Origin: a virus
Lineage: Duplodnaviria; Caudoviricetes
Strand: one strand, 5' to 3'
DNA length: 54,785 nt
Virus record (IMG/VR): IMGVR_UViG_3300032241_002057
Location: 1-54,785 of that record
In this document: in pieces, positions 14,501 to 42,533 of the stretch
How positions within the stretch are numbered: the stretch's first letter is position 1
Layout: every line of letters begins with the position of its first letter
The notes under the pieces: generated by a model
Told to the model about the DNA's origin: nothing
The model's database searches: none
Seen by the model: only the letters and a program-made list of their open reading frames with translations
Translations under genes and position numbers: made by a program

Positions 14501-17500
14501 TGGATCAACGTCTGTTATATAGTTTAGTTCTTGCTGTGCTTGACCTGGTATTCGTCCTTTTACAGGATCAAAATATTCTAAACTTGCTAAATTTTCCCCG
14601 GTATTTAAATTGAAAATTTGACTAGATTGTATTAGATTGGTATCTACTTGTAAAGGTTGTTGCCTATATGCAACAAATCCATTTTGTGTATAATTGTATA
14701 CGGTCCATGCATTTGGTACGATACCTCCTTGATCAACATACACTAAATTACCTGGCATGTATCCGCCTGGAGGAGCACTGGTATCTCTATCAAATATACT
14801 AGCAAATCTCATAGGTCTATAAACCCAGATAGTTCCACCGGTACCTGGGACAAAGGTGCTAAGGTCGATATTAAATGTTGTGGGAGTAACAGAGTTAATA
14901 ATGTAGGTATTATTAATTTCTGGAACGCCGTTTACACCGAATATCACACATATATCACCATTAAGAAGACCGTGGGGCTCGTTGGTCACTATTGTAGTAG
15001 GTTCACCAAACACTTGACTTTGTATAGTATACGACGGTTGACTTATTGCAACAGCTAGTATCCACATCATCCATTCGCCGTTATCGGTTATAAATTGCCA
15101 AACAGTGTTGTAAGGATTTAGCGGATTATTAGTTGTACTTTGTTGCAAATATAATCCTAATAAATCATTAGTATTCACTGCATAAAAATTTGATTCACCT
15201 AATTGAGCATATCCTGCTGTTGGAATATCAGATGAAGGGTCGCTTGCATATGACGATCTAAGACCAAATATGTTTGTGGTATATGTAGCAGGAGGAGTAA
15301 TGAAAAGCGGATCGTTAGCAACTAAATCAAAAACATTAGAGAATTGATTATTGCTGGTTGCACTGAAAAATCTTATCCATTGCGGATCATAATTTATATC
15401 TGCTTGAGGAAGAATATATTCCATTTCTACATTCAGTGCTGTAGCACCATAAGTACCAACTCTTATCATCCATTCATCGTAATAATTAAAGGTACTACCT
15501 GTAGGTATTACAGTACTACTACGTAACAATGCATTAACTGTTGCTAGAGTTCCTTTTTGACGTATAAATCCTTGATAAAATTGAAATTCAACTGACTCAT
15601 CTAATAATAAATTTTCTAAATAATTTCGAGGTTGGTATCCAATTAAATGCTTTGAAAGATTAGCTATATCTTGATCATCTATTGCACCAAGAGTGGTAGA
15701 CGATGTTATTGTATTTGTACCACCGTATGTGATTTTTTCGTAATTTTTCGGCTCATCGATATTGAAATATCTAGTAAAATCGCTAGCAGTTTTTTCAAAA
15801 TTGTTGGTCATTGTCCATGTATTTGACGATATTGTTTGGCCGTTGACCGTTACGTTGTTTTGTATTACTATATAACCTGGAGCATCTATTGTACCATCCC
15901 ATCCGTTAGCACGATATGTATAGATTTTTATACGTTGCTGTTGTAGATTATAAAGAGGTTGATATATTACATCTCCAAATGCTGTTAAATTATCGAAAAA
16001 TACCGCATGTTCCATAGTTGTAGTAAACAACCGGAGGCCATATACACCTTGATCGTTGTTTGGTTGTATTGTGATTGTGCCATTGTCTCTCAAAACATTG
16101 AGATTTTGCGATTGAATTGGATTACCAGCTTTATCGACTACAGGGTATGTACCTGCAATAATTCCGTTTACATATTGTATCATACCTACGGATTGAAATA
16201 GCTGCGTAGATCCTGCACTTGGGCTCAACGCGATTATAGTACCGTTAGCCCAAGATCCCTGTGCCCAAAGTAAGAATTCTTTTGCGCTTTGGCTCCAATT
16301 TAAGACAGCACCAGCATTAACGTCGTATTGTTCAAATACCCAACCTTGGCTAGTGAGCCATCTACCATAACTGATTAGAAAATCATAAACTTGTTGATAA
16401 CTTGTCATTACGGTGTTGTATAACACTACATTAGTAACGTTGATTTGGCCAGATTGATATTCAGTAACCTGTTGATTACCGATAACAATGTTAACCTTAG
16501 GTCCGGCTGTATTTGATGGTATGGTTGTGAAATATGGATTAACAGCGTCATACCCATATACTGTCCAACCGCCGTTGATTTGCTGAATAACAACTCCGCT
16601 ATAAACATATGTTCCGGTACTGGTGCTTCTATAGAGATAAGTGCTGATATTTTCGGATGGTACTATTTGACTGTTATAACCAAGCTGTCCAAAACTATCA
16701 ACTACAGCTCTAAAATTGGTAGTATTAATATAACCTGCCATTCGATGAGCCAATTGAACATTGCCACCTCGAATTATGCTACCGATATAATTGGTCACAG
16801 CTAGACCTTGAGATACGATATATTCGGTTATCCATACTTCAAAACCTGCACTAGCAAAATATGCCAAATTAGATTCGTTGGGAACATTTACTCCTGTAAC
16901 TAGAGTATTAGGTGTTTCTCTATTGATGTAGAATTGATTGCTAGCTCGTCTAGTGTTTGTATCGATATAAATCCATTGACTTTCTGCGGTATCCGAATAT
17001 ATTTGTTCAGTTCGTAAACTATCCCAGGTATATTCAATAAATGCAGCAGGTTTCATCAAGTACCCGGTAACAGATTGAACAAATGGATAATATTGAGAGT
17101 GTATCCATGCTGACTCAACCGGTCCTCCGTCACCAAATACCCAAGGAGCTTGCGCTGCATGAACAGTTGGTAGGTAACCAGCGCATCCTGCTTGAACTGG
17201 AGGTAGCAAATTGCCTTGAGTATCAACTGGTATGCAGCTCAATAACCCAGGACGAGCCCATACACTATATGTTCCTGCTCTAGGTCCTTGGCGTATAATG
17301 CCATTAGCTAAGTCTTGCCACAATGCTGTGTTACCACTAGTATAAGGCGCTGCGCCGTATTGAGATGTCCACCACGATGGTTGTTGAGAAAATCCAAGCA
17401 TTTCCCACGGGCAAATATGCGGACGATCAGTATCATAGAACCAACGGTATATTCCTTGCCATCCTCCTGGAATAGGATTTCCTTGCGGATCAGTAACTGT

Positions 17501-20368: not shown

Positions 20369-23300
20369 TGCTATTAGTTATTCCTAAGACCGAATCGTTT
20401 AAACTTTGAACAATTTGTACGTTATTAACCGTTGCACAACTAATTGGTATTTGATCCGGACCGACTTGAATTTCAAATAAATCGCCAAATACAGCCTGTG
20501 CACTTATTGGCCTCATTACAATCGAACCTATTATTGTTGCAAGATTTTGATGTACATATGCAGCCATTTCTGTAAAGAAAAAACTATCACCAAAATCCCA
20601 ATTGCTAAGTGCAAAATATTGATTTATTGATTGTATAACCAAACTTTGTATTTGATTGTTTGTAAATGTGGTTCCTGGCACTGGTACAACAAGAAAATTT
20701 GCCTGTAATTCAGGCGCTGCTTGCGGCCCGAACAACAATACATAGGTCACTGGATGCCATACCATTTGATCTGTCATCATAGCATATTGATCTAAATTAC
20801 TAAAATTGGCTGCAAGTTGTGCACTGGTCTCTGGTACCGGTAATGTTGATAAACTTCCGTTGGTAGCAATCCAGTTTCTAAGGTTTGTATCGTATGCAGA
20901 TGTTAAAACGTACATATCTATTACGTTTGTAACAGCAGGATTAATTCTTTGGTCAGTCGGTGCATAATGTACCCATAAGAAGCTTAGATTATTACGACCG
21001 ATTCTAATTTTATAATTAGAGGTTACATCTACGAGTGTTCCAACTACTTCAGCTGAAATACTTTGATATTGATACATAATACCTTGACCAAATGTTTGAT
21101 TGGTTATATAAACTATTTTTCCTGGAGTCCAATATGTGTTGATCACAGTTTGGCCATTGATTATAACAGTGATCGGCGGCAATTGGTTTACATTTTGAAA
21201 TATTTGTGTTAGTGGTATTTGTATAGGTTGCCAATATTGGTATCCACTGGAATCGGTAGTATTAACCCAAAATAATAACAGTTGTGGTGTGTAACTTGGA
21301 TTTACTACCTCGTTATACTCTGTTGGATCATTTGGTACGCCATAATTATTACTTTGCCACATGGTAACACGTACACTACTTGGATCAGTATAGCCGTCGG
21401 GGTCTATTTGTTGACCTATAATTTGCCACAAATAGTCTTGTCCTAACGATGGCGCTGGGTAAAAACTCAAAACAGCATTATATTGTGTTGATGTAGCTGC
21501 ATTATTTAATGTTATGGTATTACCCATAACATTTAATACAGTTGTTGCTACTGGTATACCAACACCTATGACAATTTGTCCTTGAGTAATGCCAATGGTC
21601 GAGTCAAGAGTTATTGTGTAGCTTCCTGTTGATAAAACAGGCGCAGTAGAAGTTACAATTTCGGTTTGACTATTCGAATTTGTACCTAATATATTTATAG
21701 AATCATAATTTGCTGACCCTGTATTAGGGTTAAATGATTTTTCAAAATTATCAAAATAAAATTGATTTTGCGATGCACTTTCGAAAATGTATCTAGATGC
21801 TCTGCTGTTAACGACCCATCCTGCACCGTTCCATGTTACCAGTAATAGCCAACTGTTGTCTTTATTTGTGTTACTAGTATCGCCTGCATATTGCATACTA
21901 AAAGTATCAGACGAATTGAGGTCTGCAGTTGGTATTACTATCCAAAAATCTAAAGTTCCTGAACTATTTGGTATACCAGCTTGTGCATAACGTATACCAA
22001 ATGTTGTTTGCAATGCCATTGCTGCTGCAATAGAATTAACTGATGTAGGAGTTAATGTAGTATTGAATTCTGGTATAATTTGTATAGGAATATCATTACT
22101 AGCAACTGGAATACTCAATGTAATAGCTCCAGGCCCTGCATTTGGTCCAACTGTTATACCGTTGGTAGAGCCTGTTAAATTTATACCGGTTCCGTTTCCA
22201 ATAATACCTACAACCGATGCATATATTCCGCTGGCAAATTTGATTATCGAGCCTTTGTTTATGTACGCCAATACACTATTCACAGGGGCAGAATTACCAA
22301 CTTGAACTGCTACGTCTCCTACATAAAATGCTCCAGTACAAGTTTTAGTTGAGCTTGTAATACTGGTCCAGCTATATTCGCTTGGTATATTGATTGTTGG
22401 GTAGTAATAATAGTAAAATTGCTTTAATTCTGTAGCCGTTGTTTGATCGCCCAAACTACCATTTATCATAGGTTGTATTTGAGTATTGACTATGATTTGA
22501 TAATTTATTCCTGCATAATTTGATATTATATTGGTATTGAGGTCAGTTTCGCTGTAAAAAATACCGTCTGTGCAAACTACATTTAAATCATTATAATTGC
22601 CAGTAGGGTCGTTTATATTCAGATATCTACTTTGGCCACTATAAAATCTATTCACAGCTTTGACTTTGAGTATAGCAGCCTCTGATAATGGGAACAAATT
22701 GTAATCCTCGCCGTTCGCCATTCTATCTTGCGTGTAGTAAGTTTGAGGAGCATTCAACGCTATTTGTTGGTCAGGTTCACCGGCTTGCGCATTTGTAACG
22801 GTATATTGAAGATTTACCGCGAAAGCAACGTTCCAAATATTGTTTAAATTATCTGCATAGCCAAATGCAAAAACTTGGTTTAAAATATCATTAGGGGTAA
22901 TTTGATATGTTAAATTATTACTGACTCTGTACCACACACGAACAATTCCAACAGGTACATTACCAAATGTACCGTCAGCAAACCTTATGCTTATTTGGTC
23001 GTTCCCTGCAACGTTTCTGCTTATTACACTGTATATATTGCGTATGCTATTAGCTAGACTGTTATAGATAATGTTATTACCTACTACAGCCGGTACCTGC
23101 GTCCATTGACTAATAACAAGACCGTTATTATCTATAAGTTGCACCCAAACATCTGTTTGATTAACGTTATCTGCATTTACATCGATTATACGATTAGCTA
23201 TTGGTTGATCACATGCGTAATCTTGATATTGCATGGTCCCTTGCTTGAAGTAGAAAAAGAATCCGGTATTAGGGCTAGCGAACCCATTTCCGTCGTTTTG

Positions 23301-24050
23301 ATAAATTATACCCCAACTGTTTAACGGATTCGGCGATACCTCGTAAAATGATCCTGCATTAAGTAAATTGGTTGTTGTACCAGAATCAAAACTAACATTT
23401 ATTAATTCACAATTAATTGTGTTACCGGCTGCTGTTGCTATAAAAGGTAGAACACTGGTTGGTATAGATGTGTTATTCATTTCATAAAGTTGGGTTTGAA
23501 TACCGTTTACTACGCCAGACTGTGTTGGCTTACCAAATGTGTTGGTGCTGTTCAAAGTAGCATTCAATACCAAGATGAATTGCTCATACCAATTTGGGTT
23601 ATTTAGATCATTCCAATTGATTCGAATATTTTGAAGATTATTACCGTCAGCATCTATGATAGGTTGATCTGATATAATAGAAGTGATCTGAAGTAATCCG
23701 CTGGCTGGAATGCTGCGTTGCGGTTGATAAGATAGCATTCTAGCCAAACGGAATATGCTATCTCTGCGAGTAGCAGTTTCAATAAAATTTTCGCGAGTGT
23801 TTAGATCCATTCTAAACGCTAGACTTTGACCAAGATACGCTAGAAGATCAATTAATGCAACAAATTCGCTGCTTTCGATCCAATCAGTAAAATCCTCTGG
23901 ATAGTTGAGCCTAATGTAATTAATCATAGCTGTACGAATTGTAGAGAAATCGTATGCACTAAAATTTATTTGTGTATATGCAGTATAGATAACTTGCCAG
24001 TCTTGAGCAGCAAATAATTGGCTTTGTCTGACTTGTTGTGTAGTAGCCAT
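20361..24050 (-). CDS. baseplate wedge protein (gp6-like)
   Basis: YDFSTIR, ALIDLLAYLGQSLAFRMDLNTRENFIETA, IRFADGTFG, QDRMANGEDY. Confidence 0.85.
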   Translation of the reverse strand: MATTQQVRQSQLFAAQDWQVIYTAYTQINFSAYDFSTIRTAMINYIRLNYPEDFTDWIESSEFVALIDLLAYLGQSLAFRMDLNTRENFIETATRRDSIFRLARMLSYQPQRSIPASGLLQITSIISDQPIIDADGNNLQNIRINWNDLNNPNWYEQFILVLNATLNSTNTFGKPTQSGVVNGIQTQLYEMNNTSIPTSVLPFIATAAGNTINCELINVSFDSGTTTNLLNAGSFYEVSPNPLNSWGIIYQNDGNGFASPNTGFFFYFKQGTMQYQDYACDQPIANRIIDVNADNVNQTDVWVQLIDNNGLVISQWTQVPAVVGNNIIYNSLANSIRNIYSVISRNVAGNDQISIRFADGTFGNVPVGIVRVWYRVSNNLTYQITPNDILNQVFAFGYADNLNNIWNVAFAVNLQYTVTNAQAGEPDQQIALNAPQTYYTQDRMANGEDYNLFPLSEAAILKVKAVNRFYSGQSRYLNINDPTGNYNDLNVVCTDGIFYSETDLNTNIISNYAGINYQIIVNTQIQPMINGSLGDQTTATELKQFYYYYYPTINIPSEYSWTSITSSTKTCTGAFYVGDVAVQVGNSAPVNSVLAYINKGSIIKFASGIYASVVGIIGNGTGINLTGSTNGITVGPNAGPGAITLSIPVASNDIPIQIIPEFNTTLTPTSVNSIAAAMALQTTFGIRYAQAGIPNSSGTLDFWIVIPTADLNSSDTFSMQYAGDTSNTNKDNSWLLLVTWNGAGWVVNSRASRYIFESASQNQFYFDNFEKSFNPNTGSANYDSINILGTNSNSQTEIVTSTAPVLSTGSYTITLDSTIGITQGQIVIGVGIPVATTVLNVMGNTITLNNAATSTQYNAVLSFYPAPSLGQDYLWQIIGQQIDPDGYTDPSSVRVTMWQSNNYGVPNDPTEYNEVVNPSYTPQLLLFWVNTTDSSGYQYWQPIQIPLTQIFQNVNQLPPITVIINGQTVINTYWTPGKIVYITNQTFGQGIMYQYQSISAEVVGTLVDVTSNYKIRIGRNNLSFLWVHYAPTDQRINPAVTNVIDMYVLTSAYDTNLRNWIATNGSLSTLPVPETSAQLAANFSNLDQYAMMTDQMVWHPVTYVLLFGPQAAPELQANFLVVPVPGTTFTNNQIQSLVIQSINQYFALSNWDFGDSFFFTEMAAYVHQNLATIIGSIVMRPISAQAVFGDLFEIQVGPDQIPISCATVNNVQIVQSLNDSVLGITNSNG

Positions 24051-24807: not shown

Positions 24808-25257
24808 TTAGTTCTTCGCCGCGTAAGCCTGTTGTGTCTTTAGACCAACAGATAGGCGCAGCGTTCTCCCTTGATTGTTAATATATTGTTCGATAATTAA
24901 TCTGTCAACGTCGCCCACTGAACTAATAAATGAACTACGATTCCAAAATACATGTCGTTTCCAGAATTGCTTTCGCAGATCAGCTTCAAATTTATTCCAT
25001 AGTTCGTAACTGGTTTGTTGTTTAATTACCTTAACAATTTGACTCGGACTTATATCAGGTCTAGCAGATACTAGTATATGAATATGATCTTTGTCGTGAT
25101 TAATTGTATCTATTGAAAATTTATGTGAAGTAGTTAATTGATTTATAATAGATATTATAAAATCACCATAGGTATTCATTAGCGGTTTTCGATATTTTAT
25201 AGTCAATACAATGTGATATTTGATCGAATATATAGAATTTGTTGTTTTTTGATACAT
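24808..25257 (-). CDS. tnpA: Y1 HUH transposase TnpA
   Basis: YHIVLTIKYRK, DHIHIL (HUH), FWNRSSF, QYINNQ catalytic Tyr; likely start 25257. Confidence 0.92.
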   Translation of the reverse strand: MYQKTTNSIYSIKYHIVLTIKYRKPLMNTYGDFIISIINQLTTSHKFSIDTINHDKDHIHILVSARPDISPSQIVKVIKQQTSYELWNKFEADLRKQFWKRHVFWNRSSFISSVGDVDRLIIEQYINNQGRTLRLSVGLKTQQAYAAKN

Positions 25258-26568
25258 TAAAGTGCTCTTTTTGACATCTGAACTAAATATATTTATGACA
25301 ATGATTGCGTACAAATATCGTATCTATCCAACAGCAAAGCAAGAAGAACAGCTTGTTGGCTGGTTAGGACAACTGCGATTTGTATGGAATAAGCTACTAT
25401 CTGACAACCAAACCCAATACGCGGCAACCAAAACATTCGCATTTTTGTTTGAAATGAAGCGCAAATTACCTCAGATGAAGAAAGATTATAACTGGATTGA
25501 CGCTCCGTCACAAGCACTTCAGAATAAAGTGTTTGACCTAGATCAGGCGATGAAAAATTGCTTCAAATTTGGACGCGGGTTTCCGAAGTTCAAATCAAAA
25601 CACTATGATAACTCGGGTATTGAAATATCACAGGTTGCGCAAATAGACAAAGATACTAACCAAGTTACTTATAGACAAATTAGGTGGGATGACCAAACCA
25701 TAAGTATACCAAAACTTGGCAAAATGAAGTGGGTGTATCATAGACGAATTAAAGGTAGATTGCTATCAATTACAATCAAACGCGATGTAGACCAGTGGTA
25801 TGTATGTTGTTTGGCAAAACAAGAAGCAAATAAAAACAACGCAATAGTAGTTGATGAAAAAGATTGTGTTGGGTTAGATCTAGGCCTAAAGGATTTCTTC
25901 GTATCAAGCGATGGTCCAGTAGCACCAACACCAAAAATATATCGAAGTAAGCAAGAAAAACTAAAGCAAAGACAACGTAGGCTGTCACGAAAGAAGAAAG
26001 GCAGCGCAAATCGCAACAAAGCACGAATCAAAATTGCTCGGTTGCACAGAACTATAAGAAATACGCGACTAGATTGGCACCACAAATTAAGTAATTTGAT
26101 AGCCAAGAATTACTCCGTGGTACTGGTCGAAGACCTCAATATCAACGGGATGATTAAAAACAGGAAGCTGGCCAAGGCCATCCAAGATCAGGGCTGGGCT
26201 CAATTCGTTACACTGCTATCATATAAATTAGAATGGAATAATGGGTTGTTGCACAAGATTGATCGATGGGCTGCTAGCACTAAGACCTGTAACTGCTGCG
26301 GATCAAAGAAAACATTAACGTTAAGTGAAAGAACATATGTATGTTCCAATTGTGATAATGTGATGGATAGAGATCTAAATGCAGCAATCAACATCAAGAA
26401 TTGGGGAATAGACGACATCAATACCGCAGGAACTGCGGGAATTTACGCCTGTGGAGATACCGCTGTCGGGGATATATCACGTGAAATATCTAGACATGTA
26501 TCGTTTGAAACAGGAACCATTCCTTCGTTGGAAGGAAGCTGTTGGTCTTCAGACCAACAGTAGTTCAC
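24812..26568 (+). mobile_element. IS200/IS605-family element (divergent tnpA/tnpB)
   Basis: Left-end hairpin CTGTTGTGTC-TTTA-GACCAACAG at 24829-24851; right-end hairpin CTGTTGGTC-TTCA-GACCAACAG at 26539-26560; terminal TCAC at 26565-26568; preceded by TTAG. Confidence 0.9.
25295..26563 (+). CDS. tnpB: RNA-guided endonuclease TnpB
   Basis: AYKYRIYPT, FPKFKSK, RuvC GLDLG / VEDL / DRDLNAA all intact, Zn finger CNCC...CSNC; likely start 25295. Confidence 0.95.
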   Translation: MTMIAYKYRIYPTAKQEEQLVGWLGQLRFVWNKLLSDNQTQYAATKTFAFLFEMKRKLPQMKKDYNWIDAPSQALQNKVFDLDQAMKNCFKFGRGFPKFKSKHYDNSGIEISQVAQIDKDTNQVTYRQIRWDDQTISIPKLGKMKWVYHRRIKGRLLSITIKRDVDQWYVCCLAKQEANKNNAIVVDEKDCVGLDLGLKDFFVSSDGPVAPTPKIYRSKQEKLKQRQRRLSRKKKGSANRNKARIKIARLHRTIRNTRLDWHHKLSNLIAKNYSVVLVEDLNINGMIKNRKLAKAIQDQGWAQFVTLLSYKLEWNNGLLHKIDRWAASTKTCNCCGSKKTLTLSERTYVCSNCDNVMDRDLNAAINIKNWGIDDINTAGTAGIYACGDTAVGDISREISRHVSFETGTIPSLEGSCWSSDQQ

Positions 26569-27161: not shown

Positions 27162-27191
27162 AACCGCGTGTTTTTTGGACACGCGGTTCTT
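27162..27191 (+). terminator. intrinsic terminator-like hairpin
   Basis: AACCGCGTGT / ACACGCGGTT 10-bp inverted repeat ending in TTCTT. Confidence 0.55.
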
Positions 27192-27206
27192 CATAAATAT
27201 GGTAGC

Positions 27207-28091
27207 ATGGCAGATATATGGATCCTTAGCAGGAAAAATGACGAAGAATATGAAAATCGTCGTCTTTTAGAATCATTTTCAACTCAAAATATCGATAGTA
27301 TATTAGTTCATCCAGACACCTTAGATTTAGTCGCGAATAGAAAAGATTTACCAAATGTTTGGTTAGATGGCAAACGAGTTGAAATGCCTAAAGCAGTTTT
27401 GGCTAGAACAGGTAGCGGATCGAATTATTTTTGTTTAGCCGCTATGAGACAACTAGAAAATATTGGCATACCAGTTATTAACTCTAGTGCAAGTATCAAT
27501 CGGGTTAAAGACAAATTAGAAACTAGTCAGCTTTTAGCTAGGCATGGTATTCCGATACCTAAAACCATGCTTGTACGATGGCCAATCAATGAGGATATAG
27601 TTGACAACGAAATTGGATGGCCGTGCGTGGTAAAGGTAATAACAGGGAGTCACGGTAAGGGAGTGTATCTTTGTAAAGATCGAAATAGTTTTGCAGAGCT
27701 TATGGAATTAATTAATAGTCTCAGTACCAATAAGAGTATAATTATACAAGAATATATAGGGTATAGAGTGGGAACTGATCTTCGTGTATGGGTCGTAGGA
27801 GGCAAGGTTATAGGAGCAATGCAGCGAACCTCTGCTAACGATTTTAGGGCTAATATATCAAACGGAGGCACAGGCGAGCCATATATTTTAACGCCTGAAA
27901 TCGAATTTATATCTCGAGAAACTGCTCGAATACTTGATTTAGACATAGCTGGCGTTGATTTATTGTTTGATAAAGACGGTTTCAAAGTTTGCGAAGCAAA
28001 CTCTAGCCCGCAATTTTTCGGCATCGAAACCTATTGCAATATGGATGCTGCTCGAGCAATAGTTGACTATATCAATTTTCGTATGTCCTGA
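27207..28091 (+). CDS. rimK: RimK-family ATP-grasp ligase
   Basis: DKLETSQLL, GIPIPKT, GSHGKGV, IQEYI, DLRVWVVG, FRANISNGG, GVDLL, CEANSSP; likely start 27207 after TAAATA. Confidence 0.9.
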   Translation: MADIWILSRKNDEEYENRRLLESFSTQNIDSILVHPDTLDLVANRKDLPNVWLDGKRVEMPKAVLARTGSGSNYFCLAAMRQLENIGIPVINSSASINRVKDKLETSQLLARHGIPIPKTMLVRWPINEDIVDNEIGWPCVVKVITGSHGKGVYLCKDRNSFAELMELINSLSTNKSIIIQEYIGYRVGTDLRVWVVGGKVIGAMQRTSANDFRANISNGGTGEPYILTPEIEFISRETARILDLDIAGVDLLFDKDGFKVCEANSSPQFFGIETYCNMDAARAIVDYINFRMS

Positions 28092-35594: not shown

Positions 35595-36956
35595 ATGTCT
35601 ATTGCACCTCCAGCTACTAAAATAAAATACTTAACAAATAAGGATTTACTAGAAGAAATACACCGTAGCAAGCTATCATACTGTAGCTTTGTTGACCCTA
35701 TGCACGCAAAGTATGATTTTATAGTTGCGAATATATCATTAATTACTCAGAAACGAATAGATGATGCAAGAAAAAAGAAACTTGCTGAAATTCAAGCCGT
35801 TGAAAAAAAAGAACATATCAATCGTGGGATCAAAGATTTTAAGAGTAAATGGTCAATCGATGATATACCTGCCGAAAGCATCGTGGTTAGAGTTATGACA
35901 TATGATCATATACCTATCAATCCAGAAAAAGTTGGCAAGGCTAAAACCGAAGGTGAGCGTCATATACGTTGCAATTTTCCGCCATTTCAACATTATATTA
36001 TGCAAGATGATCAATTAAAATGTGTATTAAAAAGTCACTGGCAAGGTGGATTAGAAAATGGTTATTTTTCAAAAGATCACGGCAAAATGACCAACAAACT
36101 AGCAATGATGTTTATGAAACTGGTTGATCGTTATGGTCATAGAGGGAACTGGCGCGGTTATTGTGTTGATACCGAGACTGAGGCTTTGACTACAAAGGGG
36201 TTTTTACGTCATGATCAAATAACAGAAAATGATACGATCTTGTCGTGTTGTAACGGTGTTCTCACGTGGTCTAAAATTAAAAGTATCTATCGTGGAGAAT
36301 TTTCCGGAAAAATGTTTTATCTAACTTCTCCTGGTATGGATGCACTTGTAACACCTAAACATAAATTCCTCACCTTATCGGGATTAAAAGAAGTAGAGCA
36401 TATTGATCATACAGATACCATTGTACTGTTGGGCAAAGGTGTTTCTGATTTGTCAGCTCTTCAAATAGATGCTATACCAAGACAAGATCTGTATGATATT
36501 CTTAATATTTGTAACGGAGAAATGAATCAAGGATTACCAAATAATGTAAGTGCCGGTGGAATAGACTTTCACGGAGGCTGGAGAGGTTATGGTCCGGAAA
36601 ATTCTCCTGTGGTAGCATACACTGGTATAGTTTGGTGTCCTGAAACAGAATATGGGTGTTTTGTTGCTAGGCGCAATGGAACTATATATTTAACTGGAAA
36701 TTCATATCTTGAGGAAATGAAAAGTCAAGCATTGTTACAGCTCAGTCAGGTTGGTTTACAATTTGACGAAAGTAGAAGTGATCAACCGAATCCGTTTGCA
36801 TATTATACTCAGACTATCACTAATTCTTTTATGCGTATATTACATGTTGAAAAGAAAAATCAAACAATACGAGACGATATGTTAATAATGCATGATTCGT
36901 CTCCTAGTTGGACACGACAAACTGATGATGCAATCAAACAACAAAAGGATTCATAA
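35595..36956 (+). CDS. late transcription sigma factor (gp55-like), intein-containing
   Basis: YLTNKDLL, NWRGY|...|SYLEEMKSQA, NPFAYYTQTITNSF...EKKNQ. Confidence 0.85.
   Translation: MSIAPPATKIKYLTNKDLLEEIHRSKLSYCSFVDPMHAKYDFIVANISLITQKRIDDARKKKLAEIQAVEKKEHINRGIKDFKSKWSIDDIPAESIVVRVMTYDHIPINPEKVGKAKTEGERHIRCNFPPFQHYIMQDDQLKCVLKSHWQGGLENGYFSKDHGKMTNKLAMMFMKLVDRYGHRGNWRGYCVDTETEALTTKGFLRHDQITENDTILSCCNGVLTWSKIKSIYRGEFSGKMFYLTSPGMDALVTPKHKFLTLSGLKEVEHIDHTDTIVLLGKGVSDLSALQIDAIPRQDLYDILNICNGEMNQGLPNNVSAGGIDFHGGWRGYGPENSPVVAYTGIVWCPETEYGCFVARRNGTIYLTGNSYLEEMKSQALLQLSQVGLQFDESRSDQPNPFAYYTQTITNSFMRILHVEKKNQTIRDDMLIMHDSSPSWTRQTDDAIKQQKDS
36162..36701 (+). other. mini-intein (180 aa) in the late sigma factor
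   Basis: Block A CVDTETEALT, block B TPKH, C-terminal WCPETEYG...TGN followed by Ser; no LAGLIDADG motif seen. Confidence 0.9.
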
Positions 36957-37164: not shown

Positions 37165-38184
37165 ATGTCTAAAGATCCAGATTTTTCACACGTTTCTATT
37201 TTCACTGACATCCATTATGGATTAAAAAATAACAGCAGAGAACATAACGATTCTTGTGAAAGATTTATTAAATGGATGATCGAACAGTCAGAAGATCGTA
37301 ACATAAAAACTTGTATTTTTGGAGGGGATTTCCATCATGTTAGATCTGCGATTAACATATCAACATTAAATTATTCTGTAAGTGGGTTGAAATTATTAAA
37401 TGATTATTTTGATCATACAATATTCATACTAGGAAACCATGATTTGTTTTACAGAGACAAATATGAGATTCATAGTTTACCGTATATCACGCAATTCCCT
37501 AAAATTACAGTTGTCGATTCTATGAGGGAAATTGGTGATGTTGCGTTCGTTCCGTGGTTAGTAGCAGACGAATGGAAGAGCGTACCCAAGTTGAAAGCTC
37601 CTTATATGTTTGGGCATTTTGAGCTTCCTCGGTTCAAGATGAACGCAATGGTCGAGATGCCGGACCATGGTTTATTAAATGCTACACATTTTGTCAATCA
37701 AAAACAGGTATTCTCTGGACATTTTCATAAACGTCAAAATTCAGGAAAGATATGGTATATTGGTAACGCATTCCCGCATAATTTTGCAGATGCATGGGAT
37801 GATGATCGCGGAGCAATGTTTTGGAAACCAGGAGAAACTCCCGAATTTTTAGCTTGGCCAGATGCACCAAAATATCGTACATTAACTTTAAGTCAAGTTG
37901 TTGCTAATCCAACCAAATATATTGACGATAAGACTTTTGCTAAGATAACAATTGATATTGATACCAACTATGAAGACGTAAATTTTATACGAGATTTGCT
38001 AGAGCATGATTTAAATGCTAGAGAAATACAAATGATAACTGCTAAGGTAAACGAGTTAGATCAGTTAGACGAAGAAGATATCAATTTTGAAAGTGTTGAT
38101 ACCATTGTAATCAGCCATTTACAAAGCATCGAATCTACTGTAATGGATAAAAATGAACTTATACGCATTTATCAGGAGATTTAA
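37165..38184 (+). CDS. recombination endonuclease subunit (gp47/SbcD/Mre11-like)
   Basis: DIHYG, GDFHH, GNHD, GHF, SGHFH metallophosphoesterase motifs. Confidence 0.92.
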   Translation: MSKDPDFSHVSIFTDIHYGLKNNSREHNDSCERFIKWMIEQSEDRNIKTCIFGGDFHHVRSAINISTLNYSVSGLKLLNDYFDHTIFILGNHDLFYRDKYEIHSLPYITQFPKITVVDSMREIGDVAFVPWLVADEWKSVPKLKAPYMFGHFELPRFKMNAMVEMPDHGLLNATHFVNQKQVFSGHFHKRQNSGKIWYIGNAFPHNFADAWDDDRGAMFWKPGETPEFLAWPDAPKYRTLTLSQVVANPTKYIDDKTFAKITIDIDTNYEDVNFIRDLLEHDLNAREIQMITAKVNELDQLDEEDINFESVDTIVISHLQSIESTVMDKNELIRIYQEI

Positions 38185-38187
38185 GTC

Positions 38188-39963
38188 GTGCTAACTTTGA
38201 AAAATGTGACCATGAGAAATTTTATGTCAATTGGTGCAGTAACACAAACTGTAGAGTTAGATAAAAATGGTTTAACACTTGTTCTTGGTGAAAATTTAGA
38301 TCTAGGTGGTAATGGATCTCGTAACGGTGTAGGTAAGTCGAGTTTGTTGCAAGCAATCTCATATGGGTTGTACGGACAAAGTCTAACCAATATTAAAATC
38401 AATAATCTCATCAATCATATTAATCAAAAGAACATGATGGTTGCTATCGAATTCGAAAAAGATGGTCACAATTATCGAATTGAACGAGGCAGGAAACCAA
38501 ATTTTTTCCGTTATGTAGTAGATAATGCCAATGTCGACGAAAGTACTGACGAAGCTCAGGGAGAGAATAGAGAAACTCAAAAAGAAATTGATCAATTGCT
38601 TGGTATGAGTCATTCTCTATTCAAACATATCGTTGCATTAAATACATATACTGAACCATTTCTTAGCATGGGTGCTCCTAAACAACGAGAAATCATCGAA
38701 GAATTATTAGGTATAACTCTTCTAAGTCAAAAAGCAGAAAATCTTAAAGAATTAATCAAAACTACCAAAAATGCTATAGAACAAGAAGAGTTTCGTATTA
38801 GAACTATAAAACAAAGTAATGATCGAATAAGAACGCACATAGAAGATATTGCTCGTAAAGCTGATGATTGGGATTTCAAACAGAACAAAATTATTAATGA
38901 TCTAGGTAACGCTATTGCAAATCTCGAAACTCTAGATATAGATATTGAATTACAATCTCATAGGGATTTAGAACTTTACAATAAACTTGTGGCATCTAAA
39001 ACTCAGGTAACCAGAGATTTATCTATGAAAAATCGTCACTTACAGCAAATAACGCAACATCTTACTAGCGCATTATCTAATTATGACCGCACAATTAATC
39101 ATGAATGTCCCACGTGCGGCCAAGAAATACATGACGACGAACACAACAGAATACGTAATGATTTAGAATGTAAAATTGTAGAATTAGACGCACAAGTAAA
39201 TGCTGAGCAATCAGAAGTCAACGCTAGCAAAGCGCAGCTTGACGAAATAGAGTCGACGTTAATCGCAATGTCTAAACCAACTACAGTTTATTCTAACTTT
39301 GAAGAAGCGTTAAACCATCGTAACACGCTTGATCAATTGATTAAAGAGTTAGAACGAGAACTTCAAAGTGTTAATCCATATAGGGATCAAAAAAATAGCT
39401 TGTCCGATACTATGCAAGAAGTTGCATATGACAACCTCAACAAGATGGTTAAAAATAGAGAACATCAAGAATTCCTGTTGAAATTATTAACAAACAAAGA
39501 CAGTTTTATACGTAAAAGGATTATTGATCAGAATCTAGCTTATCTCAATATACGACTTAATGAATATCTTGATAAGCTTGGTCTACCGCATCAAATTAAA
39601 TTTGTTAATGATTTGTCAGTTGAAATTAGCTTGCTTGGCCAAGATTTAGATTGGGGAAATTTATCGAGAGGTGAATCTACAAGATTAGTTTTAGCTCTTA
39701 GTTGGGCTTTTAGAGATGTATTCGAAAATATTACACATGCAATCAATTTAGTATTTGTGGATGAATTGTTAGACAGCGGAATGGATCCACAAGGGCTCGA
39801 AGGATCTGTTGGTGTACTTAAAAAAATGGAACGCGAGCGTAATAAGAATGTATTTGTAATATCGCATCGAGAGGAATTATCAAGCAGAGTTTCTAATATC
39901 TTGACGGTTTTAAAAGAGAATAGTTTCTCTTCGTTTAGCTGGGATTATACTCCGACTGTTTGA
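38188..39963 (+). CDS. recombination ATPase subunit (gp46/SbcC/Rad50-like)
   Basis: Walker A NGVGKS, CPTC zinc hook in a coiled coil, LSRGE signature, VFVDE, ISH. Confidence 0.92.
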   Translation: MLTLKNVTMRNFMSIGAVTQTVELDKNGLTLVLGENLDLGGNGSRNGVGKSSLLQAISYGLYGQSLTNIKINNLINHINQKNMMVAIEFEKDGHNYRIERGRKPNFFRYVVDNANVDESTDEAQGENRETQKEIDQLLGMSHSLFKHIVALNTYTEPFLSMGAPKQREIIEELLGITLLSQKAENLKELIKTTKNAIEQEEFRIRTIKQSNDRIRTHIEDIARKADDWDFKQNKIINDLGNAIANLETLDIDIELQSHRDLELYNKLVASKTQVTRDLSMKNRHLQQITQHLTSALSNYDRTINHECPTCGQEIHDDEHNRIRNDLECKIVELDAQVNAEQSEVNASKAQLDEIESTLIAMSKPTTVYSNFEEALNHRNTLDQLIKELERELQSVNPYRDQKNSLSDTMQEVAYDNLNKMVKNREHQEFLLKLLTNKDSFIRKRIIDQNLAYLNIRLNEYLDKLGLPHQIKFVNDLSVEISLLGQDLDWGNLSRGESTRLVLALSWAFRDVFENITHAINLVFVDELLDSGMDPQGLEGSVGVLKKMERERNKNVFVISHREELSSRVSNILTVLKENSFSSFSWDYTPTV

Positions 39964-40457
39964 ACTAATTCAAATATTTCGTCACGATTGTCTGTAAAAA
40001 ATTTCTCAAAATCGGTAATTATGTTTGTTTGATAACGAACATGATCGTCAATTTTAAATTTATCTAACAATAATTTGTCAAATACAACAAAACTACCTTT
40101 GTGATTGATACGAAAGACTACTACCCAAAAATCTCCATCATCTGCACTGGTTTTTGCTTGCTCTATCCATTTATCTAATAGCGGTACTGCAACGTTTTTG
40201 AATAAATTATGAAATGGAAAATCTGAATAAAATTTAGATTCAATTACAAGTTTACGCATATTACTAGGAGGTATTAGATCTGCTTTGAATGTTGCTATTT
40301 GTCCTTCATCTAGAGATGCCTTACGGAAACGATTAGAACCTCCCAAAAATGCTCCACTGTTAGGCACACGAATAAATTTTGATCCATATAGCTTTGTTAG
40401 AAAATCAGCAATCTTTCTTTCGCCGTTATTCCCTTTGGCCTTACCTTTGGTACTCAT
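39945..40457 (-). CDS. Holliday junction resolvase (PD-(D/E)xK)
   Basis: KAKGNNGER, RVPNSGA, ADL, IESK, WIEQA. Confidence 0.75.
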   Translation of the reverse strand: MSTKGKAKGNNGERKIADFLTKLYGSKFIRVPNSGAFLGGSNRFRKASLDEGQIATFKADLIPPSNMRKLVIESKFYSDFPFHNLFKNVAVPLLDKWIEQAKTSADDGDFWVVVFRINHKGSFVVFDKLLLDKFKIDDHVRYQTNIITDFEKFFTDNRDEIFELVQTVGV

Positions 40458-40506
40458 GTGTTCTCCTACTTATCATTTTTGTATTTAAGCAACATTTAAC
40501 TGCCTG

Positions 40507-40535
40507 TTGACTTTTTATTATGGTAACATTACACT
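40507..40535 (+). promoter_or_regulatory. sigma70-type promoter
   Basis: TTGACT-17-TACACT, ending 9 nt before the ATG at 40545. Confidence 0.55.
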
Positions 40536-40544
40536 TAATATATT

Positions 40545-41351
40545 ATGAAGCAGCAAACAAAGAGAACATATTCTCGTAACACTAACGACCTAAAGCCGAA
40601 GATAGTATATCCGAAAAACTTTGAAATTGACATCGAGCCTAAACTGGCTGCCGATCTTTCTTATTTTATAAAGCAAGAATTAGGTTATTATAATTCTTTG
40701 ATCGATTTGCTTTCACCTCGTTTACGTGCATATCCAAAAGATATTCTGAATATAAAAGAGAGAGAGAAGAGTCTCTGGGACTCGTGTGCAGAATACGCAA
40801 TTGATCCTCAGAAATTACTTGATCAACCGTTTGAAACCTGGCCGAAACATCTGCATCATATGCATCATATGTTATATGACATTAACGAGAAAATCAAAAT
40901 TTCACCAGCACATATAAACATTTGCAGTATCGCATCTACACCTGCGAGATTGCATGCTGTAGTTCGCAAGGCAATTGCGTCTGAAATATTAAAATACATG
41001 GTTAATCAAGCTGATATATTATTATCTGCAGTGAAAACTGATGTTATGCGAGCTCCGATGCAAATGTTGCAAACGCATACAATTGATACTAAACGGCATT
41101 TACAAATACCAAAGAGTTTGATAAAAATTACCTATAACGAGTCTGAAAATTCATCAGATATCAGTATTCCTTATAGTAAAACTGCAATTACGGTGCCATA
41201 TTATGATCTCAGGCCAGTTGCATTCAAACTTTTAATTATTCGTGCTCCTCATCCTACATCAACTAATCAAAAATGGCAACTTGATTTTAGAGACAGTCCT
41301 GCCGCATATTTATTGTCTATAACTGATCCAGTAGAACGTAAACGTAGATAA
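40545..41351 (+). CDS. hypothetical protein, possibly a TnpB-like REC/WED module without RuvC
   Basis: 268-aa ORF with its own promoter and terminator; by-eye similarity to the N-terminal half of TnpB (see findings). The ORF is secure, the homology tentative. Confidence 0.55.
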   Translation: MKQQTKRTYSRNTNDLKPKIVYPKNFEIDIEPKLAADLSYFIKQELGYYNSLIDLLSPRLRAYPKDILNIKEREKSLWDSCAEYAIDPQKLLDQPFETWPKHLHHMHHMLYDINEKIKISPAHINICSIASTPARLHAVVRKAIASEILKYMVNQADILLSAVKTDVMRAPMQMLQTHTIDTKRHLQIPKSLIKITYNESENSSDISIPYSKTAITVPYYDLRPVAFKLLIIRAPHPTSTNQKWQLDFRDSPAAYLLSITDPVERKRR

Positions 41352-41383
41352 TAGAAGCTGATACATCATATCAGCTTCTATTA
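41349..41383. terminator. bidirectional hairpin between convergent genes
   Basis: Perfect 15-bp inverted repeat TAATAGAAGCTGATA / TATCAGCTTCTATTA with a 5-nt loop; includes both stop codons. Confidence 0.7.
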
Positions 41384-41572
41384 TAACATACCGCCTTTTT
41401 TCTTTGGATCCATTGATTCATAATGTTTTTGTATAACTTTTGACAATATTTCTCGTTGTTCAAACGATAACATATGAGCTTCATTAAAATTTAATCCGCC
41501 TTGCATATAAAATGCTAGCATCGCAAGTTCATGAACAATTGCCTTGCGATTTTTTTCCATTGTATCTAGCAT
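41381..41572 (-). CDS. gp51-like hub assembly protein (possibly made as a -1 frameshift extension)
   Basis: FYMQGGLNFNEAHMLSFEQRE motif; no SD; frame is open back to 41614. Confidence 0.65.
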   Translation of the reverse strand: MLDTMEKNRKAIVHELAMLAFYMQGGLNFNEAHMLSFEQREILSKVIQKHYESMDPKKKGGML

Positions 41573-41598
41573 TTTCGTTATTAATTCTGGATCGCCCG

Positions 41599-42453
41599 TT
41601 AAGAGCGTTTGCCGAAAAAACTTGATGGATCAAATGCCAATACATCCTCCCATACATGTCCGCAGCTATTACATTGAATAGTTAGTTGTTTTGGTACACC
41701 TATCTTATTGATTTTATCTACTGCTTCGATTACCATATCTGCTTGAGATTTACTGATACCCATTAACCATTCATTAATATGGTCTCTATCGGTAACCGTG
41801 GTGTTACTTTTAATTAAAACAATTTTCTCAATGCTGCGACTAACAAGGGAAAAGGTTAATCTACTTAACCTTTCGACACTTTCTGCTAAAAGACTTGCTT
41901 TGTCTATATCATCGATATTTTCGCCTTGAGCATTTATTGCGCGAAACGCCTTCTCTTCTTCAAATTCTCTTCTAAGAAAAATTTGACGCATTTCAAAATC
42001 ATAAGGAGTCACGTACACTACAAGATCGTCTCCGAATCTTATAGTTAACTCGCTCTCGTCAATATATGTCATCGTATCTAGCAATGCTTGACAATTCATT
42101 TCGAATGTATTTTCTGCTTTGCATGCAGGACAAATTCTGTCATAGTCCATTTTACCGCCATTGCTAGCTGATTTAATAGCAACAAACAACGCTTCTAAAT
42201 CTGGTAACATAAATCGTTTTACATTTTTAATACTTGGTGCACAATCGGTTACAACCTTTTCTAATGCTTGTCCGTTTAACATAGCATCTGGAGTGTTCAG
42301 CATAATATCATTTAATGCATTTAGCGGATATACCGCTATTTGTTTGTCATCGGTTGTTTCTACAACTTCGGAATTATACCAGCGACCCTGAGTCGGTAAA
42401 TTTAAATAAAGCGCCGGTTGCCGGAAAAATTGTTGAAGCGGATTCTGAGACAT
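41599..42453 (-). CDS. baseplate hub assembly protein (gp26-like)
   Basis: NPLQQFFRQP..LPTQG, TPDAMLNG, CPAC and CNSC, C-terminal SFF. Confidence 0.8.
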   Translation of the reverse strand: MSQNPLQQFFRQPALYLNLPTQGRWYNSEVVETTDDKQIAVYPLNALNDIMLNTPDAMLNGQALEKVVTDCAPSIKNVKRFMLPDLEALFVAIKSASNGGKMDYDRICPACKAENTFEMNCQALLDTMTYIDESELTIRFGDDLVVYVTPYDFEMRQIFLRREFEEEKAFRAINAQGENIDDIDKASLLAESVERLSRLTFSLVSRSIEKIVLIKSNTTVTDRDHINEWLMGISKSQADMVIEAVDKINKIGVPKQLTIQCNSCGHVWEDVLAFDPSSFFGKRS

Positions 42454-42462
42454 TCTTACCTC

Positions 42463-42490
42463 TATAAATATAAATGTATATGCATATTTA
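42463..42490. promoter_or_regulatory. divergent late promoters
   Basis: TATAAATA on + at 42463-42470 (towards tape measure) and TAAATA on - at 42485-42490 (towards gp26-like). Confidence 0.65.
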
Positions 42491-42533
42491 CCACTATTAA
42501 AATGGTGCTTAGTTAAGTGTTGAAAGAAAGTTT

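What the first reader, a model, noticed from the sequence alone, without database searches (positions are those of the whole stretch)
40545..41351. Stand-alone protein resembling the REC/WED half of TnpB, lacking RuvC
By eye it follows the N-terminal half of the TnpB in this window in order. NFEIDIEPKLAADLSYFIKQELGYYNSLI parallels YRIYPTAKQEEQLVGWLGQLRFVWNKLL. LHAVVRKAIASEILKYM parallels APSQALQNKVFDLDQAM. DISIPYSKTAITV..FKLLIIR..KWQLDF parallels TISIPKLGKMKW..LSITIKR..QWYVCC. The ORF stops about where RuvC-I would begin. It has no IS ends, has its own sigma70-like promoter and terminator, and sits among core genes. Inference: a domesticated, nuclease-free TnpB/Cas12-derived nucleic-acid binder, more reduced than TldR or dCas12f. 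No guide RNA locus was identified.
Basis: inference. Interest (0 to 1): 0.75.

Follow-up and report, generated by a model that had tools for sequence, protein, structure and literature searches.

The report
Nuclease-free TnpB-like half in jumbo phage
A conserved early gene of a group of uncultured T4-like giant phages encodes a basic 268-residue protein predicted to fold like the DNA/RNA-recognition half of the TnpB/Cas12 RNA-guided nucleases but with no cutting domain at all, so it looks like a new non-cutting re-use of that module whose job is untested.

The parts
40507..40535 (+). sigma70-like promoter (TTGACT, 17 nt, TACACT); its -10 element ends 9 nt before the ATG, so the leader is very short or absent
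   Evidence: Found by the promoter scan at 9 of 12 consensus positions. The TTGAC[AT] element is conserved in 11 of 11 related loci, and the TA[AC]ACT -10 element in 10 of the 11. Activity and transcription start were not measured.
40545..41351 (+). gene for the 268-aa basic (pI 9.39) WED+REC-fold protein with no RuvC/TNB domain
   Evidence: ORF. Homologues. AF2 model with pLDDT 88.0 and pTM 0.83. Fold matches. pI.
40545..40610 (+). N-terminal basic tail (aa 1-22), predicted disordered
   Evidence: pLDDT is below 50 for residues 1-17. This stretch is variable and K/R-rich in alignment A1.
40617..40628 (+). WED strand beta1 (aa 25-28)
   Evidence: DSSP on the model. VIA alignments to TnpB/Cas12f begin at model residue 22.
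40638..41039 (+). helical REC-like insertion (aa 32-165, seven helices); carries the conserved residues E45, N50, R61, R141 and Q155
   Evidence: DSSP. Conservation over 136 sequences.
41091..41114 (+). the most conserved family motif, K-R-H-x-Q-x-P-(K/R) (aa 183-190), at the first strand after the helical insertion (beta2)
   Evidence: Conservation over 136 sequences: K183 93%, R184 88%, H185 91%, Q187 98%. That beta2 is the TAM/phosphate-contacting strand in ISDra2 TnpB (Q121, T123, N124) comes from PMC10097598. Residue-level equivalence between the two proteins is inferred, not shown.
41097..41291 (+). WED strands beta2-beta7 (aa 185-249)
   Evidence: DSSP gives six strands. With beta1 this makes seven, as in the seven-stranded WED barrel of ISDra2 TnpB (PMC10097598).
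41328..41348 (+). C-terminal basic tail (aa 262-268, E-R-K-R-R type)
   Evidence: A basic tail is present in most of the 27 A1 sequences. Mean pLDDT of the last block is 62.
41348..41384 (.). perfect hairpin (16-nt arms, 5-nt loop) spanning the two convergent stop codons; a possible bidirectional terminator
   Evidence: Inverted repeat I6, 100% complementary. Sequence read. It has no T-run and was not listed by the terminator scan.

Best explanation
The gene encodes an immobile, nuclease-free relative of the recognition lobe of the TnpB/Cas12 superfamily. The protein is a seven-stranded WED (OB-type) barrel with a helical REC domain inserted between strands 1 and 2. It has basic disordered tails and nothing where RuvC and TNB would follow.

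It is most likely made early in infection from a host-sigma70-type promoter. It most likely acts as a non-catalytic nucleic-acid binder. The likeliest mode is binding duplex DNA in the WED-REC groove, the groove that reads the TAM/PAM in TnpB, TldR and Cas12. That would make it a DNA-binding regulator or roadblock rather than a cutter.

Shown: the gene, its conservation, its fixed position, the predicted fold, and the absence of a nuclease domain in the protein and of a TnpB nuclease anywhere in a complete related genome. Inferred: homology (as against fold resemblance), early expression, nucleic-acid binding, and the binding mode. The biological target is unknown.
For: (1) Real, conserved gene. 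There are 27 proteins including the query at 44-100% identity, all 260-292 aa. 146 representatives score E<=1e-3, 68 at <=1e-10 and 11 at <=1e-30.

(4) The matched chain ranges equal the published WED (1-12 and 117-176) plus REC (13-116) of ISDra2 TnpB, whose RuvC domain starts at residue 185 (PMC10097598, section 'Domain structure').

(5) No nuclease. There is no Pfam hit at E<=10, and only 19 residues follow the last strand. No longer fused forms were found among 1,183 candidates. The complete 452,799-bp relative G001 has one copy of the gene and no PF01385 or PF07282 match, while 8 of 14 control genomes do match.

(6) Immobile. The order sigma55-gp47-gp46-PDDEXK(-)-gene(+)-small ORF(-)-hub(-) is the same in all 16 close loci as far as each contig reaches, and in the 5 examined of 9 more distant loci.

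(7) Basic protein. pI is 9.39 for the window protein. The family median is 9.38, and 135 of 136 members exceed 8. Conserved K/R positions are 61, 141, 142, 169, 183, 184 and 190.

(8) Conserved promoter.

(9) Fast evolution. The gene is 44-59% identical where gp47 is 76-87%, and 32-35% identical where the portal is 70-74%.
Against: No sequence statistic supports homology to TnpB. BLASTP gives E 11. hhalign gives E 0.17 and 0.5. None of the 136 members hits a TnpB Pfam family at E<=0.1 among the listed families. A PDB profile search gives only chance-level, unrelated rows.

The structures are predictions. Nucleic-acid binding, early expression and the binding mode are untested. In TnpB and TldR the guide-RNA scaffold and the heteroduplex channel need RuvC surfaces, so behaviour without RuvC cannot simply be read across.

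The weak excess of collinear sub-threshold hits to a TnpB N-terminal profile (85 of 121, against 18 of 103 reversed and 25 of 109 shuffled controls) may only reflect the shared order of helices and strands. Family members are also not independent of each other.
Confidence: 0.62

Rival explanations
1. RNA-partnered machine. The protein works as a ribonucleoprotein with the roughly 390-nt structured RNA that lies just 3' of the gene in many relatives. This would be an omegaRNA-like arrangement without a nuclease, binding targets through the RNA.
For: The RNA is real. With 5 sequences, 85 pairs are predicted and 26 show compensatory changes. With 13 sequences, 53 pairs are predicted and 32 show compensatory changes. 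G-U pairs favour the gene's strand. It has no Rfam match and is not a tRNA or tmRNA.

Of 21 IMG/VR loci carrying its motif, 14 have a family gene upstream on the same strand within 2 kb. This includes lineages whose protein is only 32-35% identical to the window's. The position 3' of the gene is as for omegaRNA next to tnpB. An earlier scan note on a 28%-identical member (P0082) also reports a large structured RNA next to it.
Against: The two elements are separable. The window and its closest relatives L001-L007 have the gene but only a 29-nt gap where the RNA would be. nhmmer finds no copy anywhere in the 54.8-kb window at E<=10.

Five loci (L028, L033, L034, L044, L047) have the RNA in the same syntenic slot with a 118-aa ORF instead of the gene. 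No family gene is found on those records, although they are only 2-42% complete. In two lineages a homologous small ORF of 95-118 aa precedes the RNA (BLASTP 1e-7).

The whole block is syntenic, so adjacency alone is weak evidence. In the complete genome G001, words from the region between the gene's stop and the next gene match elsewhere only at chance level: 12 repeated 13-mers among roughly 900 words, where my arithmetic expects about 12.

At P0082's locus I saw a roughly 950-bp ORF-free spacer. It has no nhmmer or blastn similarity to the RNA family, and its folding energy is no better than shuffles (z -0.26).
Confidence: 0.15
2. Same fold, not a TnpB derivative. On this reading the protein is an old phage OB-barrel-plus-helical-domain nucleic-acid-binding protein, for example a recombination or replication accessory factor working with the adjacent gp46/gp47 and PDDEXK nucleases. 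It would either resemble the TnpB REC lobe by convergence or represent the kind of module from which TnpB's REC lobe was once recruited.

Against: The PDDEXK neighbour is not a constant partner. It is swapped for a version only 26-32% identical in L010, L012-L014 and L016. It is inverted in the loci that lack the gene. It was not detected at P0082's locus.
Confidence: 0.15
3. Counter-defence decoy. On this reading the phage makes an early REC-lobe mimic that interferes with host type V CRISPR or TnpB-like RNA-guided nucleases, for instance by competing for PAM/TAM sites on phage DNA or for guide RNA.
For: There is only indirect support: an early-type promoter, faster evolution than the neighbours, and the gene's presence in some sublineages but replacement in others. 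All are typical of genes in arms races (established general knowledge, not tested here).
Against: There is no direct evidence of any kind, and the host is unknown. The family is widespread and long-lived at one syntenic site, which suits a housekeeping phage function at least as well.
Confidence: 0.08

Closest known systems
TnpB of IS200/IS605 elements (ISDra2 TnpB, PDB 8H1J/8EXA/8EX9; ISFba1 TnpB 8IAZ)
   Different: It has no RuvC and no TNB/zinc finger. It has no significant sequence similarity to TnpB. It has no transposon ends and no TnpA partner, and it is immobile at one syntenic site. Its REC part is larger. No guide RNA has been demonstrated.
TldR (TnpB-like nuclease-dead repressors) and dCas12f-sigmaE systems (PDB 9N9C)
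   Different: TldR and dCas12f keep a degenerate RuvC domain that, together with WED, binds the guide RNA. They remain recognisable as TnpB/Cas12f homologues and have an adjacent guide RNA (passages read). Here the whole NUC lobe is missing and no guide RNA has been demonstrated.
Cas12f (AsCas12f 8DZJ, UnCas12f 7C7L) and Fanzor2 (9B0L)
   Different: There is no CRISPR array or any tandem repeat in the window, no zinc finger and no nuclease. Whether the protein dimerises could not be tested.
Other RuvC-less 'TnpB halves' noted earlier in this scan (e1-6101436, e1-5673925, e1-6053664, e1-2589739)
   Same: The protein of e1-6101436 is P0082, a member of this very family: it shares 64 of 64 words and scores E 1.2e-12 at 28% identity. 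The other three are described as WED+REC-only proteins in other phages.
   Different: These are unchecked AI notes, not publications. The other three share no detectable words with this protein, so they would be separate cases.

Membership tests
TnpB/Cas12 superfamily (REC lobe) | WED domain: a seven-stranded OB-type beta-barrel, with the helical REC domain inserted between beta1 and beta2 | tested here: met
   Met on predicted structures only. The window protein has one strand, helices at 32-165, then six strands. P0053 has the same topology. The top 24 and top 29 of 48,161 chains are TnpB/Cas12/Fanzor/TranC, aligned over their WED+REC ranges. The definition is from PMC10097598.
TnpB/Cas12 superfamily (complete effector) | RuvC (RNase H-fold) nuclease domain with a D-E-D triad | tested here: not met
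   The protein ends 19 residues after the last WED strand. There is no PF01385 hit at E<=10. No longer forms were found. The complete relative G001 has no PF01385 anywhere.
TnpB/Cas12 superfamily (complete effector) | TNB / zinc-finger domain | tested here: not met
   There is no PF07282 hit in the protein or in G001.
TnpB (IS200/IS605 OrfB) | Significant sequence match to the family models (PF12323 HTH_OrfB_IS605, PF01385, PF07282) | tested here: not met
   The window protein has 0 families. No TnpB family appears among the families listed for 136 members. hhalign gives E 0.17. BLASTP gives E 11.
TnpB (IS200/IS605 OrfB) | Lies in a mobile element with LE/RE ends, often with TnpA | tested here: not met
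   The gene has a fixed syntenic position in the 16 close loci, the 5 more distant loci examined and P0082's locus L074. There is no convincing flanking inverted repeat. The window's real IS (24808-26563) lies 14 kb away and is unrelated in sequence.
TnpB / TldR / Cas12f | A cognate guide RNA (omegaRNA, gRNA or crRNA-tracrRNA) encoded next to the gene | tested here: inconclusive
   The window has none at the locus (29-nt gap), no tandem repeats and no Rfam hit. Many relatives have a structured RNA 3' of the gene (14 of 21 RNA loci), but that RNA also occurs without the gene. No guide-like match was found in G001.
TldR | Retained, degenerate RuvC domain forming the gRNA-binding surface together with WED | tested here: not met
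   No RuvC-like region exists in the model. The definition comes from passages in 10.1101/2023.11.30.569447 and 10.64898/2026.09.22.753285.
Any nucleic-acid-binding protein | Binds DNA or RNA | not testable with these tools
   Only indirect support: pI 9.39, conserved basic positions, and the fold.

The most novel reading that the evidence does not exclude
The family and the neighbouring ~390-nt structured RNA together form a RuvC-less RNA-protein DNA-recognition system of giant T4-like phages. This would be the most reduced member of the TnpB/Cas12 lineage, or a surviving pre-nuclease stage of it. In clades like the window's, the RNA gene would simply have moved elsewhere in the ~450-kb genome.
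Probability: 0.12. Interest if true: 0.92.

Novelty: new variant of a known kind. Interest (0 to 1): 0.72.

Why it matters
All described exaptations of TnpB/Cas12 keep at least a dead RuvC domain: Cas12k, Cas12m, TldR and dCas12f-sigmaE. I found no paper on a free-standing WED+REC protein. Four full-text searches gave listings that I scanned, and I read passages of four papers.

If the fold assignment holds, this family shows that the recognition lobe is an autonomous, evolvable module that phages keep for a non-cutting job. The family has at least 146 clusters at 50% identity and is fixed in a core region of ~450-kb phages.

That bears on how TnpB was assembled, either recognition lobe plus RuvC or the reverse, a truncation. 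It also offers a very small natural DNA/RNA-recognition scaffold. And it flags an unclassified large phage RNA next to the gene in many relatives.

Tried and rejected
Sequence routes that gave nothing:
- Pfam and PHROGs on the protein, and on 27 and 136 family members.
- PDB sequence profiles.
- tblastn of three family members against 50,697 GenBank phage records.
- A search for longer fused forms.
- ESM Atlas gave only sub-threshold leads at score 0.75. These included an 'IS605 OrfB fragment' cluster and TnpB clusters by structure at TM 0.29. I treat them as leads only.

Split-TnpB idea (a RuvC half encoded elsewhere): rejected for the complete relative G001, which has no PF01385 or PF07282.

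PDDEXK neighbour as a substitute nuclease partner: considered and not pursued. That gene is swapped, inverted or undetected in several lineages.

Guide-RNA test in G001: 13-mer matches are at chance level.

Known-RNA identity of the neighbouring RNA: no Rfam match at gathering score or at E<=1, and no tRNA or tmRNA.

Homology of the spacer at P0082's locus to that RNA: not detected.

Wider genomic contexts:
- It found no IMG/VR relatives for P0044, P0053 or P0051.
- Cluster look-up of 10 representatives gave no informative names: only 'hypothetical protein' in two clusters, none in the rest.

Expression: no RNA holder was listed for window 39900-42500, and read laying was not used.

Supplements of the cited papers were not opened. 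The TnpB census tables of PMC10691335 could conceivably list such truncated forms.

Full report
WHAT IS THERE

The finding's coordinates are exact. An ATG-started ORF of 268 codons lies at 40545-41351 on the + strand. The window is the whole record held for this genome (54,785 bases).

It is a piece of a T4-like phage. Around the ORF lie:
- a late sigma factor (35595-36956)
- gp47/SbcD-like and gp46/SbcC-like nuclease subunits (37165-39963)
- a phage PDDEXK nuclease on the - strand (39945-40457; PF24608, 8.7e-23)
- a 63-codon ORF and a gp26-type baseplate hub gene, both on the - strand
- an 862-aa tape-measure-like ORF
- a T4-type portal gene (PF07230, 1.4e-98)

A genuine IS200/IS605 element lies 14 kb upstream. 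It comprises a Y1 TnpA at 24808-25314 (- strand) and a TnpB at 25262-26563 (+ strand), the TnpB carrying PF12323, PF01385 and PF07282.

IS THE RESEMBLANCE MORE THAN CHANCE?

At the sequence level it is not:
- BLASTP of the ORF against the window's TnpB gives a best E of 11.
- Pfam returns nothing at E<=10, and PHROGs returns one meaningless hit at E 0.063.
- I collected the family. There are 27 proteins including the query at 44-100% identity and 260-292 aa (alignment A1). There are 146 representatives of 50%-identity clusters at E<=1e-3. Of these I aligned 136 of 200-345 aa as A2, dropping fragments and one 557-aa repeat artefact, P0146.
- None of the 136 hits a TnpB Pfam family. No Pfam family is hit by more than 2 members, and no PHROG by more than 1.
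- PDB sequence profiles give no relevant hit.
- hhalign of A2 against a 105-sequence alignment of relatives of the window's TnpB (A3) gives E 0.17 and probability 0.36%. A1 against A3 gives E 0.5.

So the three by-eye parallels are not statistically supported.

Two details nevertheless fit them. It pairs L38 with L20 and pairs N50, conserved in 96% of the family, with N32, invariant in A3.

Second, sub-threshold HMMER hits of a TnpB N-terminal profile to family members fall in collinear places in 85 of 121 members. The controls give 18 of 103 for reversed sequences and 25 of 109 for shuffled sequences. Examples include I-x-I-P-K...V-K-W and s-I-T-I-k-r-d..W-y-V type matches. This probably reflects the shared order of helices and strands and is not independent proof.

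THE FOLD

AlphaFold2 with alignment A1 gives a confident model: mean pLDDT 88.0, pTM 0.83, with 203 of 268 residues at pLDDT >=90. Its layout is:
- a disordered basic N-terminus (residues 1-17 below pLDDT 50)
- one beta-strand (25-28)
- seven helices (32-165)
- six beta-strands (185-249)
- a short basic tail

This is the published architecture of the TnpB recognition lobe. There, a seven-stranded WED barrel (residues 1-12 and 117-176 in ISDra2 TnpB) has the REC domain (13-116) inserted between beta1 and beta2, and RuvC starts at residue 185 (PMC10097598, section 'Domain structure', passages read).

Foldseek against the PDB finds no row at E<=0.001. However, its first 27 listed rows (ranks 1-29) are all Cas12f, CasLambda, Cas12n/o/g/k/m/p, TranC or TnpB. 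The best is 8j1j_B at E 1.5e-3, probability 1.00, TM 0.35.

The search that does not depend on Foldseek (VIA-align 2 against 48,161 representative chains) gives 24 top rows that are all of this superfamily, each aligned only to its N-terminal WED+REC range:

In the viral library BFVD the best two rows are family members: A0A345MN37, and A0A6J5KSC0, an 'uncharacterized protein' of an uncultured phage. The next named rows are viral TnpB/Fanzor 'transposases'.

NO NUCLEASE, NOT SPLIT, NOT MOBILE

- Only 19 residues follow the last strand.
- A search restricted to longer proteins found no fused form (0 of 1,183 candidates at E<=0.01; weak evidence by the tool's own caveat).
- Among the 146 representatives, the only one above 345 aa is the repeat artefact.
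- One relative's record, G001, is 452,799 bases and 100% complete by CheckV as reported by the tool. It contains exactly one family gene and no match to PF01385 or PF07282, while each of those models matches in 8 of 14 control genomes. The protein is thus not one half of a split TnpB, and it does not depend on an IS605 in the genome.
- The gene keeps one position. In all 16 IMG/VR loci found with A1, the order sigma55-gp47-gp46-PDDEXK(-)-gene(+)-63-aa ORF(-)-hub(-)-tape measure is kept as far as each contig reaches.
- The same holds in the 5 examined of 9 loci found with the 31%-identical P0037. It also holds, without a detectable PDDEXK gene, at the locus of the 28%-identical P0082.
- No tandem repeat or CRISPR-like array exists in the window, and no convincing inverted repeat flanks the gene.

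EXPRESSION SIGNALS AND RATE

Directly upstream lies TTGACT-17 nt-TACACT, ending 9 nt before the ATG. The -35 element TTGAC[AT] is present in 11 of 11 loci inspected. A TA[AC]ACT -10 element follows at 16-18 nt in 10 of the 11. In most loci it lies 0-9 nt from the first ATG, and there is no Shine-Dalgarno sequence in the window.

By analogy with T4 early promoters (general knowledge), I infer early transcription by host RNA polymerase and a very short or absent leader. This is unmeasured. No RNA run holding the region was listed.

A perfect hairpin with 16-nt arms (41348-41384) fills the gap to the convergent 63-codon ORF. It lacks a T-run and did not pass the terminator scan.

The gene diverges faster than its neighbours. 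It is 44-59% identical where gp47 is 76-87% and gp46 is 72-80%. It is 32-35% identical where the portal is 70-74% and gp47 is 55-59%.

WHAT THE CONSERVATION SUGGESTS

The family is uniformly basic. The window protein has pI 9.39, the family median is 9.38, and 135 of 136 members exceed 8.

Across 136 sequences the best-conserved positions are:
- E45 (98%) and N50 (96%) in the first REC helix
- K/R at position 141 (99%)
- Q155
- the motif K183-R184-H185-x-Q187-x-P-(K/R)190 at the first strand after REC
- Y210, W244 and Y255

In ISDra2 TnpB, the TAM duplex sits in the WED-REC cleft, and WED residues Q121, T123 and N124 contact the target-strand phosphate and the TAM. These residues lie just past the start of the second WED segment at 117; that this places them on beta2, the first strand after REC, is my inference, since the passage read does not name the strand. 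[quoted passage not shown]

The family's strongest motif falls on the topologically equivalent strand. This is my main reason for proposing duplex-DNA binding in the WED-REC groove. The residue-level equivalence is inferred, since the tools give no residue alignment.

In TnpB and TldR the guide-RNA scaffold is held between WED and RuvC. A RuvC-less protein would therefore lack half of that surface.

THE NEIGHBOURING RNA (relatives only)

In L008, L009 and L012-L015, about 900 bp lie between the gene and the 63-aa ORF. This stretch holds a 95-aa ORF followed by about 390 nt that is highly conserved at the nucleotide level.

The RNA is structured. RNAalifold predicts 85 pairs with 26 compensatory in 5 sequences, and 53 pairs with 32 compensatory in 13 sequences from four lineages. 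Conserved G-U pairs would be A-C mismatches on the other strand, so the RNA lies on the gene's strand.

It has no Rfam match and is not a tRNA or tmRNA.

It also lies about 100 nt after the gene, with no intervening ORF, in the distant L020-L027 group (nhmmer E about 1e-19 to 1e-20). L019 was aligned in A8.

A motif scan of IMG/VR found 21 loci:
- 14 have a family gene upstream on the same strand within 2 kb.
- 2 are cut by contig ends (L041, L042).
- 5 (L028, L033, L034, L044, L047) have the same syntenic slot but a 118-aa ORF instead of the gene. That ORF is homologous to the 95-aa ORF (BLASTP 1e-7), and no family gene is found on those fragmentary records.

Conversely, the window and L001-L007 have the gene and no room for the RNA. 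nhmmer finds no copy in the window at E<=10.

In G001 there is one RNA copy. Words from the region between the gene's stop and the next gene recur elsewhere in the genome only at chance level.

An earlier scan note (e1-6101436) concerns P0082, a member of this family, and says it 'sits next to a large structured RNA'. At that locus I saw the same synteny and a roughly 950-bp ORF-free spacer.

Overall the RNA is an interesting unclassified element of the same variable slot. An obligate partnership with the protein is not supported, and a facultative one is not excluded.

COMPARISON WITH KNOWN SYSTEMS AND NOVELTY

The protein works most like the REC lobe of TnpB/Cas12. As a family member it passes the structural definition of that lobe. 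It fails every other defining feature of TnpB: RuvC, TNB, sequence models and mobility. The guide RNA feature is inconclusive.

It is more reduced than TldR and dCas12f, which retain a degenerate RuvC and an adjacent guide RNA (PMC13472631 seen only in a search listing). The PNAS census of TnpB/Cas12 describes inactivated and exapted TnpBs; in the 12 of 25 matching passages shown to me I saw no RuvC-less free-standing form, and I did not open its supplements.

Four full-text searches returned no paper on such proteins.

Within this scan, four earlier unchecked notes describe RuvC-less TnpB halves in phages, one of them in this family. The phenomenon may therefore be recurrent.

I rate the finding a new variant of a known kind. 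Two things remain open: the direction of evolution (truncated TnpB or a pre-nuclease module) and the function.

VERDICT

Function is inferred, not shown. Interest is 0.72.

Noticed in passing
L008:5340-5760, L009:7146-7566, L012:7154-7574, L013/L014:7147-7567, L015:5402-5822, L019:7815-8235, L020:1241-1661, L025:7800-8220, L027:7816-8236, L028:1786-2206, L033:1166-1586 (absent from the window): An unclassified structured RNA of about 390 nt occupies the slot between the WED-REC gene (or a 95-118-aa ORF) and the 63-aa ORF in related jumbo phages. With 13 sequences, 32 of 53 predicted pairs show compensatory changes. It has no Rfam match. IMG/VR holds 21 loci with its motif.
   Followed up: partly
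window 35595-36956 (aa about 190-367 of the late sigma factor): The gp55-like late sigma factor carries an insertion of about 160-175 aa that most relatives lack: their matches join residue 209 to residue 368. The junctions look intein-like, with a Cys-led start after ...GNWRGY and an ...TGN|S end. It is a candidate mini-intein. Pfam gave no hit for the whole protein.
   Followed up: partly
window 24808-26563: An apparently intact IS200/IS605 element (Y1 TnpA divergent from a 422-433-aa TnpB) sits inside the phage's structural region. TnpB relatives at 73-83% identity occur on other large contigs of up to 440 kb. The complete relative G001 has none, so it is a recent insertion.
   Followed up: partly
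window 8555-20368 and 20361-24050 (- strand): Two very large ORFs of 3,937 aa and 1,229 aa lie back to back. They were not analysed.
   Followed up: no
L008:5058-5345, L014:6852-7136, L033:785-1138: A small ORF of 95-118 aa precedes the structured RNA in two lineages. The versions are homologous (BLASTP 1e-7) and have no Pfam family. It may be the RNA's own companion protein.
   Followed up: partly
window 39945-40457 versus L010, L012-L014, L016, L028-L047: The PDDEXK nuclease next to gp46 is replaced in some relatives by a version only 26-32% identical. It is inverted onto the gp46 strand in the loci that lack the WED-REC gene. This slot is a hot spot for gene exchange.
   Followed up: no
window 27168-28091: A RimK-type ATP-grasp enzyme gene (PF08443, 5.1e-46; PHROG 'ribosomal protein S6 glutaminyl transferase') lies next to the IS element. 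It is an auxiliary gene in a structural region.
   Followed up: no
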